From the IMG/VR virus record IMGVR_UViG_3300028601_000023, positions 1-64,000 of that record: a stretch of 64,000 nt of DNA. The stretch is one strand, 5' to 3'. This DNA is from a virus. Lineage: Duplodnaviria; Caudoviricetes. The stretch's first letter is position 1, and each line of letters begins with the position of its first letter. Positions 5,474 through 31,499 of this stretch are shown one piece after another. The notes beneath the pieces are model-generated. The model worked only from the letters and a program-made list of their open reading frames with translations, did no database searches and was not told the DNA's origin. The position numbers and the translations under genes are program-made.

Positions 5474-5767
5474 TTAATTTTTATTTTGGAATGGCTGCAA
5501 GCTTTCTTCTAATACTTCAGTGTATTTTTTATAGATCAAAATAGTTCTATAATATGCTTCAGCCACTTCTGCTGGTGTAGCATTCTCAGTCAAATAATTG
5601 ATCGGAAAATCAGGCTTTTCTACTTTATCAATTTCAGGCTTTATCATTATTGGAACTTCTATATAGACTGGGCGGTCTACGTATCTGTCAACATATTTAG
5701 TGCATCCTGAAATAAATAAACATAGAACAAGTATTAGCGCAAATTGTGTGCATTTGATCTTAGCCAT
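5474..5767 (-). CDS. o-spanin (Rz1-like outer-membrane lipoprotein)
   Basis: Signal peptide with lipobox ISG-C, Pro-rich mature part, overlaps the upstream i-spanin in another frame. Confidence 0.8.
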   Translation of the reverse strand: MAKIKCTQFALILVLCLFISGCTKYVDRYVDRPVYIEVPIMIKPEIDKVEKPDFPINYLTENATPAEVAEAYYRTILIYKKYTEVLEESLQPFQNKN

Positions 5768-6165
5768 TTAATTGCATCCTCTGAAGATTTAACTGATTCT
5801 GGTACCAACTTCTTTGTTGTATTTATTAATGCTTTGAGTTCGTTGTTCTTTTCAGCAAGTGAAGAATTCAACTTTTCTATTTCAGATTTGAATTCTTCAG
5901 AGTCTTTATTGAACTCTTGAATCATTTTGTTCTGCTCATCTATTGCGATTCTTAGAGATTGTGCATTGGTCATTTCAACAAAATATTCTTTCTGGAGCTG
6001 TTCATAGCGTTCTTGCTGTACTAACATTTGCTTCTCAAACGAAGATTCTTTATATTTTATAGTTCCAAACAGTCCAAGACACAACACAACAAGAGCAGCG
6101 ATAACAATTCGTTCTTTTGTCATGAATGATAAAATTATAGACCACATATAGTTCTCCTTAAACAC
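5734..6165 (-). CDS. i-spanin (Rz-like inner-membrane protein)
   Basis: N-terminal TM helix then long coiled coil; probable start is ATG at 6147 (MWSII) after GGAG. Confidence 0.8.
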   Translation of the reverse strand: MFKENYMWSIILSFMTKERIVIAALVVLCLGLFGTIKYKESSFEKQMLVQQERYEQLQKEYFVEMTNAQSLRIAIDEQNKMIQEFNKDSEEFKSEIEKLNSSLAEKNNELKALINTTKKLVPESVKSSEDAIKWLRSNAHNLR

Positions 6166-6166
6166 T

Positions 6167-6174
6167 CTATTTAT
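6167..6174 (-). promoter_or_regulatory. Late promoter (GATAAATA) for the leftward spanin-neck-terminase operon
   Basis: TATTTATC on + strand; the same variant precedes gp18, gp22 and gp3. Confidence 0.65.
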
Positions 6175-6224
6175 CCAATATATGATTTATAGTCTTCCGC
6201 AAAGAAAACTCTTGTTGCTTTAGC

Positions 6225-24833: not shown

Positions 24834-25319
24834 ATGTCAAAACGTCCGCAATACTGTAACAATAAGGAATTTTATGAAAGGCTCACATCATGGTTAGATG
24901 AAACCAAAGATCAAGAATCTCCAAAAATCCCAGATGATATTGCTCTGACTATCATGCGTATCTGTGAGAACCTTGGACGATCTGGACGGTTTAAAAACTA
25001 TACATGGCTTGACGATATGATTGCTGATGCCATTTATTGTTGTATCAAAGGTCTTAGAAATTTCAACCCAGAAAAAAGTTCTAATCCTTTTTCTTTCTAT
25101 ACTGCTTTTGCATGGAATGCATTCATTAAACGTATCAATACTGAAAAGTCACGATTAGCTGCTCTTCAGGATTACAAAGAAAATCTAACTGATCTGTACT
25201 ATACGGATCGAAATGATGACTTTTCATATATTGATACTAATGCTCATAATGCAAATATGGAATATTTAAAAGAGAAAAAGAAAAAAATCAAAAAAGATCT
25301 GATGGAAGAATTCTTATAA
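24834..25319 (+). CDS. gp55: Late-transcription sigma factor
   Basis: Y.NNKEF, F.NYTW.DDMI.DA, NFNPEKSSNPFSF.T...NAFI.RI..EK. Confidence 0.93.
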   Translation: MSKRPQYCNNKEFYERLTSWLDETKDQESPKIPDDIALTIMRICENLGRSGRFKNYTWLDDMIADAIYCCIKGLRNFNPEKSSNPFSFYTAFAWNAFIKRINTEKSRLAALQDYKENLTDLYYTDRNDDFSYIDTNAHNANMEYLKEKKKKIKKDLMEEFL

Positions 25320-26392: not shown

Positions 26393-28126
26393 ATGATCGT
26401 ATTTAAAAAAGTAATAATGAAAAATTTCTATTCTGTTGGTAATAAAGCAGTAGAAATAGATCTTGATAAACACAAAATTACTATAGTATCGGGGAAAAAT
26501 GGTGCTGGCAAATCTGCAATAATTTTGGATTCTATATTCTTTTGTTTGTATGGTAAATCATTCCGCAGAGTAAATCTTGGTAATATGATCAATTCTATAA
26601 ACAATAAGAAGATGGAACTTGAATTATATTTCCAAAATGGTCCTAATACATATATGATTCGTAGAGGGTTAAGACCAAACTATTTTGAGATCTATATCAA
26701 TGGAATACTGAAACCTCTGCCAGCAAATCTAAAAGACTATCAAACGTTCCTTACAACCAATATTCTCAAAATGGATGAGAAGACTTTCAAACAGCTGGTT
26801 ATCATTGGATCTACCTCATATATTCCGTTTATGAGGCTATCACTTGGTGAACGCAGAATAGTAATAGACGATTTACTACGCCTTGATCTATTTTCATCTA
26901 TGCTCTGGAACGCAAAGCAATTGAATTCATCTGCAGAAGCTGATTACAACTCAACATCTAATTCTATTGATAATCTAAAGACCAAAGTAAAATACAAGAA
27001 ACAATCTTCTGAAGATGTAGTCTCTAATCTAAAGTCTAATATTACTGATATAGAAAGCTCAATTGAAAGTCTAAAAGAAAAGACTGTTGACCTTCAGACA
27101 AAGAAAGAATCTTGTTTAGATGAATTTCAGACTGATGTTATAACTAATCTACAGAAAACAATCAAATCTCTTTCAAAGTCTATTCCTGAATTACAGATTC
27201 TTAAATCAAAAAAGCAATCATCTATTGACGCAAATAGATCAATTATAGATTTCTTTGAAGCTCACGACATTTGTCCGACATGCACACAACAGATCTCAGA
27301 TGATAAAAAATCTGAGCAGGTTAGTACCGCAAAACAAAAGGAAGAAAAGTATCTATCAGAATTAGTTCTTTTCAATGACAAGATCGATGAACTATCCAAA
27401 CAAAAAGAATCTCAGATGGAAGAGCTCAAAACTTTTAGATCTAAGTATACTGAAATTGAAGCTATAAACAATCAGATCAAGTCGATCAATGATCAGATCA
27501 AATTGTTAGACAAGCAACACGGATCATTGCTATCTAAATTAGAAACAGCCCTGAATACAACTGAAGAAAATATTACCGAAATTCTCAACGAGATCTCATC
27601 ATATGAAGATATCTTGAATCAGTCGAACAAAAAACTAACAGCTATCAAATCTGTTATTGCTCTATTGAAAGATGACGGTGTTAAAAGTATTATCATCAAG
27701 AACTATATTCCGATCATCAATGCTCTGGTCAAAAAATATCTTGATGTCATCGGCTTCAATGTTGGGTTTGAATTCAATGAGCAGTTCTCAGAGATCATTA
27801 GATCTCGTGGAAGGGATATCTTTGAGTACGACAACTTTTCAGAAGGAGAGAAGATCCGATTAGATCATGCTATCCTTTTTGCTTTTAGAGAGTTGTCAAG
27901 ACTGCGTAGTAGTATTCATACCAACCTATTGATCTTTGATGAATCTGATAAAGGAACATTGGATACTGATGGATTCACTGCTATCAAGGATATCATATCA
28001 ACCTGTACAGACGAGAACATTATTCTCATTTCTCATTCACCAGAAAACTTTATGGACATCGCTGACAGATCGATCAATGTGAACAGGAAAAACAACTTCT
28101 CCGTGCTCGAAATATCGGAACATTAA
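26393..28126 (+). CDS. gp46: Recombination ATPase subunit (Rad50/SbcC-like)
   Basis: GKNGAGKS, CPTC zinc hook, FSEGEK signature, LIFDE, ISH. Confidence 0.96.
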   Translation: MIVFKKVIMKNFYSVGNKAVEIDLDKHKITIVSGKNGAGKSAIILDSIFFCLYGKSFRRVNLGNMINSINNKKMELELYFQNGPNTYMIRRGLRPNYFEIYINGILKPLPANLKDYQTFLTTNILKMDEKTFKQLVIIGSTSYIPFMRLSLGERRIVIDDLLRLDLFSSMLWNAKQLNSSAEADYNSTSNSIDNLKTKVKYKKQSSEDVVSNLKSNITDIESSIESLKEKTVDLQTKKESCLDEFQTDVITNLQKTIKSLSKSIPELQILKSKKQSSIDANRSIIDFFEAHDICPTCTQQISDDKKSEQVSTAKQKEEKYLSELVLFNDKIDELSKQKESQMEELKTFRSKYTEIEAINNQIKSINDQIKLLDKQHGSLLSKLETALNTTEENITEILNEISSYEDILNQSNKKLTAIKSVIALLKDDGVKSIIIKNYIPIINALVKKYLDVIGFNVGFEFNEQFSEIIRSRGRDIFEYDNFSEGEKIRLDHAILFAFRELSRLRSSIHTNLLIFDESDKGTLDTDGFTAIKDIISTCTDENIILISHSPENFMDIADRSINVNRKNNFSVLEISEH

Positions 28127-28164
28127 AGACTTTCAAGCGCCGCAACGAAACAGTCAATAATATC

Positions 28165-28186
28165 GGGACCTTACGGTCCCTTTTTT
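28165..28186 (+). terminator. Intrinsic terminator after gp46
   Basis: GGGACC-TTAC-GGTCCC-TTTTTT. Confidence 0.88.
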
Positions 28187-28364
28187 AATTTTCTGCCAAT
28201 TTTGTTGGTAAATATACAGCAATTTTCGTCAATTTCGGGAATAGTCAATTAATTCAACAGGTTAGATGAAATATAGACACACTCTAAGTGGTTGATTTAA
28301 TTCAACAAAAAAAGATACCGTTATTTTCCACAACATTTTTCGTAAATCACAAAAGTGAACCGTT

Positions 28365-28578
28365 TAAAGTAGACAGCTGAAGGATTTATACTAACTTATA
28401 CTGAAATTTCAATATAACTCGGTATAACTTTCCACCAAGGTTTCTACTGTAAGTTTCAACTAACAAGAGCGAAGCTAAATCTTTCCACTGAGGGAACCGA
28501 AGTGGATGTCCCGAAGGGACAAACTCTGATGAGATTTTATTAGATCACCAGAGTGAATACCTAAAGTAGACAGCTGAA
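28365..28578 (+). repeat. 17-bp exact direct repeat TAAAGTAGACAGCTGAA (28365-28381, 28562-28578)
   Basis: Read directly; both copies preceded by AGTGAA. Confidence 0.9.
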
Positions 28579-28793
28579 AGGTTTAGCTAAGTTTAGCAGT
28601 CTTAGAATTATTTAGACGAGATAGAAAGTATATCTATCAGTCCATCTATCAATTAGAATATCCTTAAGGCGATATTTAGATTTATTCTAATTGATCATTC
28701 TCCGGTTCCCTCCGAATGATACCGTCACTAGTTCCTAGTGACAATGGTTTTAATGGTTCCTTTAAAATTCTATTCTAAATACCTCTATTATTC

Positions 28794-29180
28794 ATGTTTT
28801 ATAGCTCCAAACTATATTTGTTTGGGACTAAGTATTTAAAATTATTGAAAATGACATTTTGATGGTTTATCTAGAGATATATCATGAAATTCTATCATCA
28901 GTCCAAAAAACTTTGGAGAGTGTATGATACTCCGTTAAATGACATTCTATCCATCTAAGTAATCAACTAAATTGACTAATTTCTTCTATTGCCTCTAATT
29001 GTTCCCTAGCGGGAAATGGCCTCGGTTCCCTTCGGCCAAAGTTTTAATGGTTTCTATAAATATTTCTATGGAATTCTATTGATCATTCCTATAAAATTTT
29101 ATATTCTGATTCTATCAATTCCATATTATATCTATGTTTTATAGCTCCAAACTATATTTGTTTGGGACTAAGTATTTAAA
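28794..29180 (+). repeat. 47-bp exact direct repeat (28794-28840, 29134-29180) within a larger imperfect repeat
   Basis: ATGTTTTATAGCTCCAAACTATATTTGTTTGGGACTAAGTATTTAAA twice, with internal CCAAAC/GTTTGG hairpin. Confidence 0.95.
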
Positions 29181-29213
29181 TTTATTCAAATTCACATAAA
29201 ATCAAATATTTAG

Positions 29214-29242
29214 TTGACAGATCAGCCAAACGAGAATATATT
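29214..29242 (+). promoter_or_regulatory. sigma70-type early promoter
   Basis: TTGACA-17-TATATT. Confidence 0.8.
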
Positions 29243-29273
29243 CTTATCTCAATCAACAAACCACGGAGTTTAA

Positions 29274-31499
29274 ATGTCTGACACTTTCCGCATCTACTCA
29301 AATTTGCTCGCTCAGGAAGGAATCGACCTGAAGTATTCAGCAAAGGTTGCAACCGCCAGCTTCGACTTCGACACACGGAAGATTACACTTCCAGCATTTG
29401 AATATCTTGACACCACTTCAAACCAGATGATGACGGCTCACGAAGCGGGACATGCTCTTTATTCGCTTTATACTTTGGATCAAGTCAAATCTCACAATAG
29501 AAAATATGGATCTTTGTTCAACATTCTGGAAGACTGTTATATTGAAAAGGAAATCAAGAAATCTTTTCCTGGACTCCGTCAAATTTTTATAGATGCTTAT
29601 ACTTCGCTGTTTGATAATGAATTCTTCGGCAAGATCCCAACAGATGTCAGTGCTGCTGATATGAAATTGGTTGATAGGATCAATGTTCATTTCAAACTTG
29701 GTCATATGATTAATGTTGAATTCCTTCCAGAAGAAAAGAAATATATCTCTCAGATCTATATGCTTTCTTCCAATGAAGACGTAGTCAATTTATGCAAAGA
29801 CTTGAAAGAGTTCATCAAGGAATCTCGAAAGGAAGAAGAAAAAAACCCCGAAGAGAAACCGGCACAAAATCCTCAGAAACAAGAAGACCAAGAAGCTTCT
29901 CAGGGATCCTCTTCGGAGATTGGAGAAGACGAGAATGAAGAAACGGATTCAGATAATTCTGAAGGTGATGAAAGCGACGAAGAAAATGATTCTAATGGTG
30001 ATGAGACTTCTGATTCTGATGACGATAATTCAGATGAAGACTCGGATAATGAATCTGCTGAATCTGCTGAATCATCAACTGGTAATGAAGAATCCGATGA
30101 TCTTGATGATGATCTTGGTGATGATCTTATTTCTGATACTGATAACGCTGTAAAAGATAAGTTTGATAATCTGAAGACTTTCAGTTCTTCAGAAATCGAG
30201 ATCTTCAAGGTTGCTAATTGCAGTCAATATGAACATCTCTGTGGATCTCTGCTTGATTTTATTCCCATGTTCAAAACATTTCTTGCTCGTAAAGAAACCA
30301 AATTCAAATCATTTTTAGCTAGTCATGCAAATAGAGTAAAAACAATTTCTAATGCTGCGGGTGCCGCTGATTCGTATTTCAAAATGAAACTGACTGCAAA
30401 GAATTTGTCTCAATCAAAAATGAGAAAGACCGGCCGCATTGATTCTCGTACATTAGTTCATTACAAGACTCGAGATGATATCTTTAAAAAGATGATGGTA
30501 CTTCCTGAACAACAAAACCACGGAGTCATTATTCTTTTAGATGCATCTGGTAGTATTCAACCGAGTTTTTCAAATATCATTACACAGACCGCTATACTTG
30601 GGGAATTTTGCAAAAGAAATTCTATCCCATTTGAAATATTTCTTTTTGGTGCAAGAGCAGCAGGCCGGGATTCAAAGCCAGTACACAAGATTGCTGATAG
30701 TTTAAATTTTGATCTTCGAACATTTCTTTTGTTTGATGTTACTGAAAATAGAAATAAACTGAAATATAAATATCGTACCGAAATACCAATGTGGTATTTT
30801 GGTGAAACTCCAATGGACGCAGCGTGTGTTGTTGCAGAAGAACGTATTGCTGCATTTAAATCTGCTGGAATTGAAAAAACTCATCTCTTTTTGATTACAG
30901 ACGGCGACAGTATTGGAAGCAACGTTATTCTTGATACAGATAATGGGATTTTGCATTCATATTTGGTCGGCCGTGGTATGGAGGGTAATTGTGATCCATC
31001 CAGGCTGATCTATAAAAATCAAAGCATTGATATTTCTAAATACATTGGAGAACTCTCAGATTTTTCCAATGAAATAGCAAGATCGCCGTTCTATATTGAA
31101 AAGTTTCTTTACTATATCAAAAAGAAACACCAAACAAAAGTAACTTTGTGCTATTGTGGAAACCAAGATATCCCACAAACCAACTACAAGATCGGTAGAA
31201 TGAAAGGTAAGCATTACGCGTATCATGGAATGAATGTATTAGATAACAGTTTAGTGTGTTCAAATAAAGATCTTACAAAGATGAAACAGAATAATGAAAT
31301 CGGATACGCAAAAGTTGATCTTCCTTGGATGAACAATGTTATCTATTTTACAGACTCTGCCTTCAAAACTGGATCCAGTAATAATCTTCCAAAGTTTTCG
31401 ATTACAGACGATGATCACCTGAAGGCTATATCCGAACACAATAAACTGAGATCTGCTCTGTCTTTATTCATCAAAGAACTTGTCATGGAACTTGCATAA
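29274..31499 (+). CDS. Zincin-like (HExxH) + acidic linker + vWA/MIDAS protein (CobT-like)
   Basis: HEAGH, FNILED..IE, D/E/S-rich linker, MIDAS LLDASGS, ETP, LITDG. Confidence 0.85.
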   Translation: MSDTFRIYSNLLAQEGIDLKYSAKVATASFDFDTRKITLPAFEYLDTTSNQMMTAHEAGHALYSLYTLDQVKSHNRKYGSLFNILEDCYIEKEIKKSFPGLRQIFIDAYTSLFDNEFFGKIPTDVSAADMKLVDRINVHFKLGHMINVEFLPEEKKYISQIYMLSSNEDVVNLCKDLKEFIKESRKEEEKNPEEKPAQNPQKQEDQEASQGSSSEIGEDENEETDSDNSEGDESDEENDSNGDETSDSDDDNSDEDSDNESAESAESSTGNEESDDLDDDLGDDLISDTDNAVKDKFDNLKTFSSSEIEIFKVANCSQYEHLCGSLLDFIPMFKTFLARKETKFKSFLASHANRVKTISNAAGAADSYFKMKLTAKNLSQSKMRKTGRIDSRTLVHYKTRDDIFKKMMVLPEQQNHGVIILLDASGSIQPSFSNIITQTAILGEFCKRNSIPFEIFLFGARAAGRDSKPVHKIADSLNFDLRTFLLFDVTENRNKLKYKYRTEIPMWYFGETPMDAACVVAEERIAAFKSAGIEKTHLFLITDGDSIGSNVILDTDNGILHSYLVGRGMEGNCDPSRLIYKNQSIDISKYIGELSDFSNEIARSPFYIEKFLYYIKKKHQTKVTLCYCGNQDIPQTNYKIGRMKGKHYAYHGMNVLDNSLVCSNKDLTKMKQNNEIGYAKVDLPWMNNVIYFTDSAFKTGSSNNLPKFSITDDDHLKAISEHNKLRSALSLFIKELVMELA

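What the first reader, a model, noticed from the sequence alone, without database searches (positions are those of the whole stretch)
28187..29213. 1-kb non-coding region with a conserved-loop hairpin in both orientations (candidate origin or ncRNA cluster)
Seen: AGGGAACCG occurs three times, each in the loop of a hairpin with a different stem: TCCACT/AGTGGA (28484-28506, + strand), ATCATTC/GAATGAT (28694-28720, - strand) and TGGCC/GGCCA (29017-29038, - strand). Each has neighbouring short hairpins, several with GAA triloops (AGC-GAA-GCT 28468; TGTCCC-GAA-GGGACA 28507; GTCACTAG-TTC-CTAGTGAC). The left half has a 17-bp direct repeat, the right half a 47-bp repeat and many TTCTAT words, and a 13-bp inverted repeat (28648-28695) lies between. 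A constant loop on variable stems suggests selection on structure. Established: GCGAAGC-type mini-hairpins are unusually stable in ssDNA and occur at phage origins and promoters. Inference: a bidirectional origin with priming or loading signals, or paired structured RNAs.
Basis: partly seen in the sequence, partly recalled or inferred. Interest (0 to 1): 0.72.

Follow-up and report, generated by a model that had tools for sequence, protein, structure and literature searches.

The report
Triplicated strand-mirrored DNA hairpin cassette
A T4-like phage carries three copies of a gene-free 1-kb cassette whose small stable hairpins sit on one DNA strand in the left half and on the other strand in the right half. 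Two other distant T4-like phages share this design, so it is most likely a start site for DNA or RNA synthesis, perhaps a new kind of phage replication origin, but this is untested.

Summary
AGGGAACCG occurs three times in the window (0.11 expected), always at the tip of a hairpin with a different stem: once on the + strand, twice on the - strand.

The gap between gp46 and a CobT-like gene (28127-29273) is one of three mosaic copies of a cassette in this 141-kb T4-like phage. The others lie at about 84.4-85.2 kb and 121.2-122.2 kb. This scan had already noted those two copies on other windows of the same genome.

The "loop" is better read as stem, GA, a 2-bp GAA-triloop mini-hairpin, GA, stem. 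The same grammar and the same polarity (+ strand left, - strand right) recur in two other phages:
- In cultured Nitratidesulfovibrio phage SRB7757 it lies upstream of a family-A polymerase-like gene, as at cassette 3 here.
- In an uncultured T4-like contig it lies between uvsW and gene 55.

No Rfam family matches, and the - strand units have no host-type promoter.

Best reading (0.42): strand-specific single-stranded-DNA start signals beside iteron-like repeats and AT-rich tracts, forming an origin-like element with outward synthesis. Rivals are N4-style hairpin promoters, small RNAs, and a recombination or architectural repeat.

Interest is 0.66. It would be a new variant of a known kind.

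The parts
28165..28186 (+). Intrinsic terminator after gp46 (6-bp GC stem, 4-nt loop, T run). It belongs to the repeated unit in cassettes 1 and 2.
   Evidence: 28117-28387 is 98.5% identical to genome 84407-84679
28190..28345 (.). L module: about 155 nt, nearly identical in all three cassettes. It is not significantly structured and has two internal direct-repeat pairs (28216-28233/28330-28347 and 28249-28259/28297-28307). Candidate protein-binding (iteron-like) duplex DNA.
   Evidence: alignment; repeats; 11-mer found six times in the genome, only in the cassettes; fold z -1.1/-0.9
28365..28388 (+). Left copy of the 24-nt direct repeat that brackets module A (right copy at 28562-28585).
   Evidence: (D4)
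28466..28585 (+). Module A: about 120 nt conserved in all three cassettes while the spacer to its left is unrelated between them. It holds four + strand hairpins.
28468..28476 (+). Mini-hairpin with a 3-bp stem and GAA triloop. It contains the classic GCGAAGC heptamer (28469-28475).
   Evidence: stability class from PMC13037366
28484..28506 (+).
28507..28521 (+). 6-bp hairpin with a GAA triloop closed by C-G (contains CCGAAGG, 28511-28517). In cassettes 2 and 3 the stem is kept and the loop is GCAA.
28523..28554 (+). Fourth hairpin of module A (6+3 bp with a bulge). Position 28550 is A here and G in cassettes 2 and 3, which gives T/U.G on the + strand and C.A on the - strand.
28648..28695 (.). 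Perfect 13-bp inverted repeat with a 22-nt spacer, between the two halves. TCTATC words lie beside it (28620-28650).
28694..28720 (-). Signature hairpin B: 7-bp stem, GGA/GGA internal loop, GG-GAA-CC tip.
28724..28742 (-). 8-bp hairpin with a GAA triloop. Its paralogue in cassette 3 (genome 121923-121935) keeps the hairpin through two double compensatory changes.
28743..28760 (-). Conserved 5' flank of the - strand units (an A4 run preceded by GGAACC-like bases). It is shared by units B, B' and C.
   Evidence: (D2)
28750..28900 (.). AT-rich tract (23-25% GC against about 36% for the genome) to the right of unit B. It includes repeat D1a (28789-28857).
28768..29115 (+). Array of eight same-strand TTCTAT words.
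29002..29015 (-). 5-bp hairpin with a GCTA loop closed by C-G (GNNA type).
29017..29038 (-). Signature hairpin C: 5-bp stem, GAA/GA internal loop, GG-GAA-CC tip.
29050..29250 (.). Second AT-rich tract (22-24% GC) to the right of unit C. It includes repeat D1b (29129-29197).
29055..29062 (+). T4-type late-promoter-like box TATAAATA, facing the CobT-like gene. Each cassette has one or two.
   Evidence: 21 on the + strand of the genome, 4 of them in the cassettes
29214..29242 (+). Host-type early promoter (TTGACA, 17 nt, TATATT) for the CobT-like gene that starts at 29274.
   Evidence: equivalents before the genes downstream of cassettes 2 and 3

Best explanation
The 28127-29273 gap is one of three copies of a DNA-level signal cassette. 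Its active parts are small hairpins that form on single-stranded or supercoil-extruded DNA. They lie on the + strand in the left half (module A) and on the - strand in the right half (units B and C).

Each signature hairpin presents the same tip (GA, a GG-GAA-CC mini-hairpin, GA) on an arbitrary stem. This is what a protein that reads the tip and the stem junction would need.

I propose the following (inferred, not shown). A phage protein binds these hairpins and starts a primer or RNA chain on the hairpin-bearing strand as template. Synthesis always runs towards the 5' end of the template, so chains started at A run leftward and chains started at B and C run rightward. That gives bidirectional, outward synthesis from the cassette, as at an origin.

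The unstructured, near-identical L module with its direct repeats, the TTCTAT array and the two 22-25% GC tracts would serve as initiator-binding and unwinding parts. The best candidate for the starting enzyme is the 613-aa family-A polymerase-like protein encoded just downstream of cassette 3.

Shown: the anatomy, the triplication, the conserved grammar and polarity in three T4-like lineages, and the polymerase fold.
Inferred: hairpin extrusion, protein recognition, chain initiation and origin function.
For: 1. Specificity. The 9-mer occurs 8 times in the 141-kb genome, all in three clusters, each with + then - polarity. A grammar scan (stem of at least 4 bp, 2-3 purines, NN-GNA-N'N', 2-3 purines, stem) finds 9 sites in the genome, 8 of them in the cassettes. 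Markov shuffles average 1.1.

2. Selection. The L and A modules are nearly identical in the three copies, while the spacer between them is unrelated. Stems differ between units, with compensatory changes, and the tip is constant.

3. Conservation across lineages.
- SRB7757 (gp46 37% identical) has + strand units followed by a - strand unit with a GA, GC-GAA-GC, GA tip. They lie in the only such gap of its genome, directly upstream of its polymerase-like gene.
- Contig L203 (gp47 33% identical, gp55-like 41%) has the same mirrored layout in a 1.4-kb gap between uvsW and the gp55-like gene. There the middle base of the triloop is A, C, G or T while the flanking G and A are kept.
- The tip stem covaries between lineages (GG/CC here, GC/GC there).

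4. DNA-type tips. GCGAAGC, CCGAAGG and C-closed GCAA and GCTA loops lie on the strand named, with non-special loops on the complement. GCGNAGC and CCGAAGG mini-hairpins are known at G4 oric, RSF1010 ssiA and N4 early promoters (PMC13037366; PMC4496689).

5. No host-type early or late promoter lies on the - strand of any cassette, and no Rfam family matches.

6. Origin-like accessories. The L module is unstructured (z about -1) and carries repeats found only in the cassettes. AT-rich tracts lie beside B and C.

7. The 613-aa neighbour of cassette 3 has a family-A polymerase palm and fingers (Foldseek probability 1.0; Z 14 to Pol theta and Klenow, 12.2 to mitochondrial RNAP, 11.7 to T7 RNAP). 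Motifs A, B and C are conserved in 29 homologues.

8. Geometry. In cassettes 1 and 2, SRB7757 and L203 the left-facing signal points antisense into the upstream gene. That suits an origin better than a promoter.
Against: - There are no experimental data of any kind.
- GC skew shows nothing at the cassettes; it follows gene orientation.
- The conserved tip of this phage has a GG/CC stem. The mini-hairpin review says GG-CC stems with a GAAA loop do not show the unusual gel mobility of the mini-hairpins.
- Nearest-neighbour DNA folding gives both strands similar energies.
- One substitution (28550) is tolerated as U.G only in a + strand RNA.
- The polymerase-like gene is next to only one of the three cassettes. 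It was not found in the 11-kb L203 contig or in two other viral records with similar hairpin pairs.
- Whether that enzyme can start chains, or makes RNA or DNA, is unknown.
- Close relatives of this phage could not be fetched, so orthologous conservation of cassette 1 itself is untested.
Confidence: 0.42

Rival explanations
1. The hairpins are N4-style promoters. The family-A polymerase-like enzyme would be a small single-subunit RNA polymerase that recognises template-strand GNA hairpins. The - strand units B and C would drive rightward transcription of the downstream genes (CobT/CobS-like here, NrdG-like and dCMP deaminase at cassette 2, the polymerase-like gene and a thymidylate-synthase-like gene at cassette 3). 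Module A would drive leftward transcription.
For: N4 vRNAP promoters are template-strand hairpins with a 5-7 bp stem and a 3-nt GGA or GAA loop with a sheared G:A pair. The hairpins at 28507-28521 and 28724-28742 fit that size. The enzyme family lacks the Glu steric gate five residues after the motif A Asp. Its motif B reads like T7 RNAP (my comparison from memory of T7 RNAP). Mitochondrial, T7 and N4 RNAPs are among the structural matches. The B, B' and C units share a 5' flank with an A4 run. Yutin et al. raise the RNAP possibility for the possibly related divPolA2.
Against: Every downstream gene already has a strong host-type early promoter, and a late box lies in the cassette. Leftward transcription from A is antisense to the upstream gene in cassettes 1 and 2, SRB7757 and L203. 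The signature hairpins are more complex than N4 promoters, and their tip is closed by G-C, not C-G. Structural matches to DNA polymerases score as high as or higher than those to RNAPs. An RNA made here could also act as a replication primer, so this rival shades into the best explanation.
Confidence: 0.2
2. The modules are genes for small structured RNAs: A is transcribed rightward and B and C leftward. Their conserved tip would be a protein- or RNA-binding loop. Alternatively, the complementary tips of A and B/C within one read-through transcript would form kissing loops.
For: The modules fold well as RNA (z down to -4.8). The GCAA loop in cassettes 2 and 3 is a GNRA tetraloop. The A-to-G change at 28550 keeps a U.G pair only in a + strand RNA. 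The A tip and the + strand reading of the B tip are 92% complementary over 13 nt (pair I14).
Against: No Rfam match appears even at E up to 1. No early or late promoter lies on the - strand in any cassette, and none precedes A convincingly. No U-tract terminators follow the units. About 50 stem pairs are Watson-Crick, with a single wobble. GCTA and GAA triloops are not favoured RNA loops but fit DNA classes. In L203 the triloop middle bases on the two strands do not match as kissing partners would need.
Confidence: 0.15
3. The cassette has no initiation role. It is a recombination-prone or mobile intergenic repeat (like the PeSL cassettes of other T4-type phages or bacterial REP/BIME clusters). 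It may act as an architectural or gyrase-binding site, an insulator between transcription units, or a hotspot for module shuffling.
For: Cassette 1 is a mosaic of cassettes 2 and 3. Related phages carry the cassette at different intergenic sites: after gp46 here, between uvsW and the gp55-like gene in L203, a tRNA cluster after gp46 in SRB7757. Similar GA, GC-GAA-GC, GA hairpins occur inside dispersed repeats of giant-virus bins (L181, L204). A TnsA-like endonuclease gene abuts cassette 3.
Against: There are no terminal inverted repeats or target duplications around the whole cassette. The strict, lineage-independent strand polarity relative to gene direction, and the invariant tip across 8 units, suggest a read signal rather than selfish spread. 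There are only three copies.
Confidence: 0.13

Closest known systems
RSF1010 (IncQ) oriV with the single-strand initiation signals ssiA and ssiB
   Same: Both have hairpin start signals on complementary strands of one non-coding region, flanked by iterons and an AT-rich tract. ssiA contains a CCGAAGG mini-hairpin, and the same heptamer is at 28511-28517.
   Different: RSF1010 uses a dedicated RepB' primase, a RepC initiator and a RepA helicase on a small plasmid, with one ssi per strand. Here there are several units per strand, a different conserved tip with G.A internal loops and three copies in a 141-kb phage. The only dedicated-enzyme candidate has a family-A polymerase fold. No RepB'-like gene was looked for.
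Bacteriophage N4 virion RNA polymerase early promoters
   Same: N4 promoters are template-strand DNA hairpins with a 3-nt GRA loop and a sheared G:A pair, read by a T7-like (family-A-related) polymerase. They are the precedent for hairpin tips as polymerase start signals in a phage.
   Different: N4 promoters are single simple hairpins that all face the early genes, and the enzyme is a 3,500-aa virion protein. Here the units are mirrored, carry internal loops and a G-C-closed tip, and sit beside ordinary early and late promoters. The 613-aa enzyme matches N4 mini-vRNAP only weakly (Z 7.7).
G4-type complementary-strand origin (primase recognition hairpins with a GCGAAAGC mini-hairpin)
   Same: Both use GNA/GNNA mini-hairpins that resist SSB as primase entry sites.
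   Different: G4 has a single-stranded genome, one strand only and the host DnaG primase.
T4 origins oriF (uvsY) and oriG (gene 34)
   Same: T4 also has several dispersed origins. In L203 the cassette lies next to uvsW and uvsY, the neighbourhood of T4 oriF (from my own knowledge of T4).
   Different: T4 origins consist of a MotA-dependent middle promoter plus an unwinding element that forms an R-loop, without hairpin arrays. No MotA-box-like word lies in 28127-29273.
PeSL cassettes of T4-type Aeromonas and Vibrio phages, and bacterial REP/BIME clusters (from memory, not checked here)
   Same: Both are repeated intergenic cassettes with stem-loops, sometimes in alternating orientation, and are linked to modular shuffling.
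   Different: Those have conserved stems or promoters, not a constant tip on variable stems, and no fixed left/right strand polarity.

Membership tests
N4-type DNA hairpin promoters | Template-strand hairpin with a 5-7 bp stem and a 3-nt GRA loop closed by C-G | tested here: inconclusive
   28507-28521 (6 bp, GAA, C-G closed) fits in cassette 1 only; cassettes 2 and 3 have GCAA there. 28724-28742 has GAA closed by G-C. The signature hairpins have extra internal loops.
N4-type DNA hairpin promoters | A phage-encoded T7-like single-subunit RNA polymerase that reads them | tested here: inconclusive
   A family-A polymerase-fold protein follows cassette 3. RNA or DNA synthesis is undecided.
N4-type DNA hairpin promoters | Transcripts start a fixed distance from the hairpin and run into genes | not testable with these tools
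   This needs 5'-end mapping. The geometry is sense for B and C but antisense for A in two of the three cassettes.
IncQ-type oriV (ssiA/ssiB) | Hairpin initiation signals on both complementary strands within one non-coding region | tested here: met
   + strand units lie on the left and - strand units on the right in all three cassettes, in SRB7757 and in L203. This covers layout only, not activity.
IncQ-type oriV (ssiA/ssiB) | Iterons bound by an initiator, plus an AT-rich unwinding tract | tested here: inconclusive
   There are cassette-specific direct repeats in L, a TTCTAT array and 22-25% GC tracts. No initiator was identified.
IncQ-type oriV (ssiA/ssiB) | A dedicated RepB'-type primase | not tested
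   No search for RepB' homologues was run. The neighbouring enzyme has a different fold (family A).
T4 oriF/oriG-type origins | MotA-dependent middle promoter upstream of the unwinding element | tested here: not met
   None of the 22 MotA-box-like words in the window lies in 28127-29273.
d(GCGNAGC)-class hyperstable mini-hairpins | Two G-C pairs in GC/GC or CC/GG arrangement around a GNA or GNNA loop | tested here: met
   Met by 28469-28475 and 28511-28517 and by all SRB7757 and L203 tips.
d(GCGNAGC)-class hyperstable mini-hairpins | The same arrangement in the conserved tip of this phage's signature hairpins | tested here: not met
   The tip is GG-GAA-CC. GG/CC stems are reported not to show the unusual stability.
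Any Rfam RNA family | A covariance-model match at or near the gathering score | tested here: not met
   The best hit overlapping the gap (28081-28197) is the terminator region at 22 bits against a cut-off of 50. Nothing matches in the cassettes of L128, L129 or L130.
divPolA2 (Yutin et al. 2024), for the neighbouring enzyme | Sequence or profile similarity to the published representative AUR84708 | tested here: inconclusive
   hhalign probability is 3.9%, with only the stretch before and through motif A aligned. The architecture is shared (palm and fingers, no exonuclease domain, unrelated N-terminal domain).

The most novel reading that the evidence does not exclude
T4-like phages of at least three distant lineages use a previously undescribed kind of replication origin. 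It consists of arrays of strand-specific GNA mini-hairpins with G.A-flanked tips, mirrored about a centre. A dedicated minimal family-A polymerase with an N-terminal winged-helix-like domain reads them and starts chains de novo on extruded hairpin DNA. This would be a family-A enzyme acting as an origin-specific primase or RNA polymerase.
Probability: 0.27. Interest if true: 0.85.

Novelty: new variant of a known kind. Interest (0 to 1): 0.66.

Why it matters
Origins of replication are known experimentally for T4 itself but for almost none of the very diverse T4-like phages of environmental bacteria. A sequence-recognisable, repeated origin-like cassette would make that question testable, and one carrier (SRB7757) is cultured.

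If the neighbouring minimal family-A polymerase reads the hairpins, it would give a function to a group of orphan extra polymerases in phages. It would also add a second, independent case, after N4, of polymerase start signals built from DNA mini-hairpins.

The short, portable hairpin grammar could also be used to annotate similar cassettes in viral metagenomes.

Tried and rejected
1. tRNA or tmRNA: none in the window. The phage's tRNA cluster is at 101.1-101.9 kb.
2. Known RNA families: none.
3. Hammerhead ribozyme, suggested by the word CTGATGAG in module A: no second core element by eye and no Rfam hit. Rejected.
4. Coding: the longest ORF (29016-29144, 42 aa) loses its frame and length in cassette 2 and has no spaced ribosome-binding site. 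Rejected.
5. Nucleotide relatives: no blastn hit among 50,697 phage records. Exact 21-mer scans of viral contigs and genome contigs were empty.
6. Protein-anchored searches for relatives in viral contigs and genome contigs, with gp46, the CobT-like protein and the polymerase-like profile, found nothing.
None is related to the phage. This was my error of design.
The contigs of the 89-96% identical CobT-like proteins (P0001-P0003), of the 94% identical polymerase-like protein (P0035) and of the 58 remote homologues could not be inspected. I add SRB7757 (re-tested) and L203 (new).
9. GC skew as an origin marker: uninformative.
10. DNA nearest-neighbour folding to tell the strands apart: both strands score alike, because the model lacks the special-loop terms.
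11. A single-sequence AlphaFold model of the 613-aa protein was useless (pLDDT 33). The model with 29 aligned homologues was usable (pLDDT 79).
12. The pattern of two AGCGAAGCGA words also picks up pentamer tandem repeats. Only about 20 of the 116 loci held two or more hairpin units.
Full report
**1.

The window is the first 64 kb of a 141,174-bp linear IMG/VR record of a T4-like phage, about 80% complete. The finding covers the gap between the stop of an SbcC/gp46-like gene (26393-28126) and the start of a 741-aa CobT-like gene (29274). Upstream lie UvsW, a gp55-like factor and gp47.
- No ORF in the gap exceeds 42 aa, and there is no tRNA.
- AGGGAACCG occurs at 28491 (+), 28703 (-) and 29023 (-) and nowhere else in the window, against 0.11 expected.

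**2. The gap is one of three copies**

The 9-mer occurs eight times in the genome, in three clusters: 28.5-29.0 kb (+,-,-), 84.7-85.0 kb (+,-) and 121.5-121.9 kb (+,-,-). These are the three largest non-coding gaps of the genome at 1147, 804 and 1053 bp.

The copies are mosaic:
- 28117-28387 is 98.5% identical to cassette 2.
- 28458-28811 is 83% identical to cassette 3.
- 28975-29190 is 86% identical to cassette 2.

Cassette 1 therefore combines a B-type right arm (as in cassette 3) with a C-type right arm (as in cassette 2).

Two modules are almost invariant in all three copies. One is a 155-nt left module, L (28190-28345). The other is the 120-nt hairpin module A. The spacer between them is unrelated from copy to copy. 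Simple recent duplication would not give that pattern. It points to selection on, or conversion of, specific modules.

Earlier notes of this scan had already described cassettes 2 and 3 of this same genome from other windows. I treated them as leads and re-tested what I could.

**3. Anatomy of cassette 1, left to right**
- The gp46 terminator.
- L, which is not significantly structured (z about -1 on either strand). It carries two pairs of direct repeats whose words occur only in the cassettes.
- A 24-nt direct repeat that brackets module A.
- Module A, with four + strand hairpins.
- A centre with TCTATC words and the 13-bp inverted repeat.
- Unit B on the - strand (two hairpins and a conserved 5' flank), followed by a 23-25% GC tract.
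- Unit C on the - strand (two hairpins and the same flank), followed by a 22-24% GC tract.
- A late-promoter-like box at 29055, then a consensus early promoter at 29214-29242 for the CobT-like gene.

**4. The 'constant loop' is a structured tip**

Each signature hairpin reads as stem, two or three purines beginning with G, a GG-GAA-CC mini-hairpin, two or three purines, stem. A scan of the whole genome for this grammar gives nine hits, eight of them the cassette units. Markov shuffles average 1.1 with a maximum of 4.

The companion hairpins end in GAA, GCAA or GCTA loops. All are of the GNA or GNNA type on the strand named, and their complements are unremarkable.

**5. The design is conserved in other T4-like phages**

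The closest cultured relative by gp46 (37% identity) is Nitratidesulfovibrio phage SRB7757.
- Behind its gp46 lies a tRNA cluster, not the cassette.
- It has one 1.1-kb gap with the same design. Several + strand hairpins on unrelated stems of 10-13 bp are followed by - strand hairpins, each with a GA, GC-GAA-GC, GA tip.
- The three strict grammar hits of that 142.6-kb genome all lie in this gap.

A scan of IMG/VR for two such tips close together returned 116 loci, partly pentamer repeats. About twenty of them hold two or more true hairpin units. One, L203, is a third T4-like lineage, with gp47 33% and the gp55-like protein 41% identical to this phage.
- Its order is UvsY, UvsW, a 1.4-kb gap, the gp55-like gene, gp47.
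- Read in gene orientation, the gap again has + strand units on the left and - strand units on the right.
- The triloop's middle base is A, C, G or T in different units, while the flanking G and A never change.

That free middle base is the signature of a GNA triloop. The tip stem also differs between lineages (GG/CC here, GC/GC there) while staying paired. Within this genome, unit B and its paralogue B' keep the GAA hairpin through two double compensatory changes. So the structure, the tip and the left/right polarity relative to gene direction are conserved while the sequences are not.

**6. A family-A polymerase-like neighbour**

Downstream of cassette 3 lies a 613-aa ORF with no Pfam or PDB sequence match and one close homologue.
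- An exhaustive HMMER search found 60 remote relatives.
- Invariant residues fit polymerase motifs A, B and C, and the conserved stretch before motif A resembles that of Pol I.
- With the alignment, AlphaFold reaches pLDDT 79.
- Residues 300-613 match family-A palm and fingers: Foldseek probability 1.0 to KlenTaq, Bst Pol I and Pol theta. Z scores are 14 to Pol theta and Klenow, 12.2 to yeast mitochondrial RNAP, 11.7 to T7 RNAP and 7.7 to N4 mini-vRNAP.
- The N-terminal part gives only weak winged-helix-like matches (Z about 4).
- The Glu steric gate of DNA polymerases is absent, so RNA synthesis is possible but undecided.
- Among 50,697 phage records only SRB7757 has a homologue. It sits directly downstream of that phage's hairpin gap.

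The link is suggestive but not general. Cassettes 1 and 2 have other neighbours. The 11-kb L203 contig and two other records with similar hairpin pairs show no such gene, although all are fragments. The relation to divPolA2 of Yutin et al. (PMC11348598) is plausible by architecture but weak by profile.

**7. DNA or RNA?**

For DNA:
- The tips belong to the d(GCGNAGC)/d(CCGAAGG) and C-closed GNNA classes. These are exceptionally stable in DNA and are known at G4 oric, RSF1010 ssiA and N4 promoters.
- GCTA and GAA triloops are not favoured RNA loops.
- About 50 stem pairs are Watson-Crick.
- No early or late promoter lies on the - strand of any cassette, and none precedes A convincingly.
- There are no terminators and no Rfam match.
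- The fixed mirror polarity makes sense for two strands of one duplex.

For RNA:
- Folding z-scores are good.
- GCAA is a GNRA loop.
- One substitution (28550) is neutral only as U.G in a + strand RNA.

Caveats:
- This phage's own conserved tip has a GG/CC stem, which is reported not to be of the hyperstable class. Its invariance probably reflects protein recognition rather than stability.
- The nearest-neighbour DNA model cannot separate the strands.

**8. Most likely mechanism**

Any polymerase or primase that uses the hairpin-bearing strand as template moves towards that strand's 5' end. Chains started at A therefore run leftward, and chains started at B and C run rightward, so synthesis diverges from the cassette.

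In cassettes 1 and 2, SRB7757 and L203 the leftward direction is antisense to the upstream gene. That is awkward for a promoter but natural for a bidirectional origin.

Together with the unstructured repeat-bearing L module, the TTCTAT array and the AT-rich tracts, the layout parallels RSF1010 oriV (iterons, AT-rich tract, ssiA and ssiB on opposite strands). Three dispersed copies recall the multiple origins of T4. In L203 the cassette lies beside uvsW and uvsY, the neighbourhood of T4 oriF (my own knowledge).

I therefore rank an origin-like initiation cassette first (0.42). N4-style hairpin promoters are second (0.20). The two merge if the RNA serves as a primer. Small RNAs or kissing loops are third (0.15). 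A recombination or architectural repeat is fourth (0.13). Nothing here shows activity.

**9. Limits**
- Close relatives of this phage exist as proteins (89-96% identity), but their contigs could not be fetched.
- Orthologous conservation of cassette 1 itself is therefore untested.
- The comparative case rests on three paralogous copies and two distant lineages.

**10. Verdict**

This is a real, non-random, conserved and unannotated element. It is a new variant of single-stranded-DNA hairpin start signals rather than a member of any described family. It is worth an experiment in the cultured relative.

Noticed in passing
L131:6200-7520 (SRB7757, downstream of its gp46): The position that holds cassette 1 in this phage holds a tRNA gene cluster in the closest cultured relative. 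ARAGORN tRNAs there. This phage keeps its 6 tRNAs elsewhere, at genome 101.1-101.9 kb, outside the window.
   Followed up: partly
window 29274-31499: The 741-aa gene after the cassette has no Pfam match. It shows an HExxH-like HEAGH motif near residue 56, an acidic low-complexity middle and a DASGS (MIDAS-like, vWA) motif near residue 423. An AAA_5 (CobS-like) ATPase follows it. It looks like a CobT/CobS-type pair.
   Followed up: no
L181:1-260 and 2700-2860; L204:200-480 and 5480-6180: Contigs binned as giant-virus MAGs carry dispersed and tandem GC-rich repeats in AT-rich DNA. Each repeat contains a short hairpin with the same GA, GC-GAA-GC, GA tip, again in + then - arrangements. It is unclear whether these are related to the phage cassettes or convergent.
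   Followed up: partly
genome 120660-121175 (- strand; L128:1661-2176): A TnsA-like endonuclease gene (Pfam Tn7_TnsA-like_N, E 2e-23) abuts the left edge of cassette 3 and is transcribed away from it.
   Followed up: no
window 24834-25319: This 161-aa protein has a weak Sigma70 region 2 match. It is 41% identical to the protein in the same position (before gp47) in contig L203. It is probably the gp55-type late sigma factor.
   Followed up: partly
whole window: The T4 MotA-box-like word WWTGCTTYA occurs 22 times against 10 expected (none of 100 shuffles reached 22). Thirteen copies are on the - strand although nearly all genes are on the + strand. None is in the cassette.
   Followed up: no
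L130:6765-6887 (SRB7757, just after its polymerase-like gene): There is a sub-threshold Rfam match to the alphaproteobacterial sRNA ar14 (34 bits against a cut-off of 58.8, E 0.005).
   Followed up: no
L130:3110-3540 (SRB7757 hairpin gap): The left part of that gap appears, by eye, to contain an internal tandem duplication of roughly 240 nt with its own long hairpins. It may be the counterpart of this phage's L module, with no sequence similarity.
   Followed up: no
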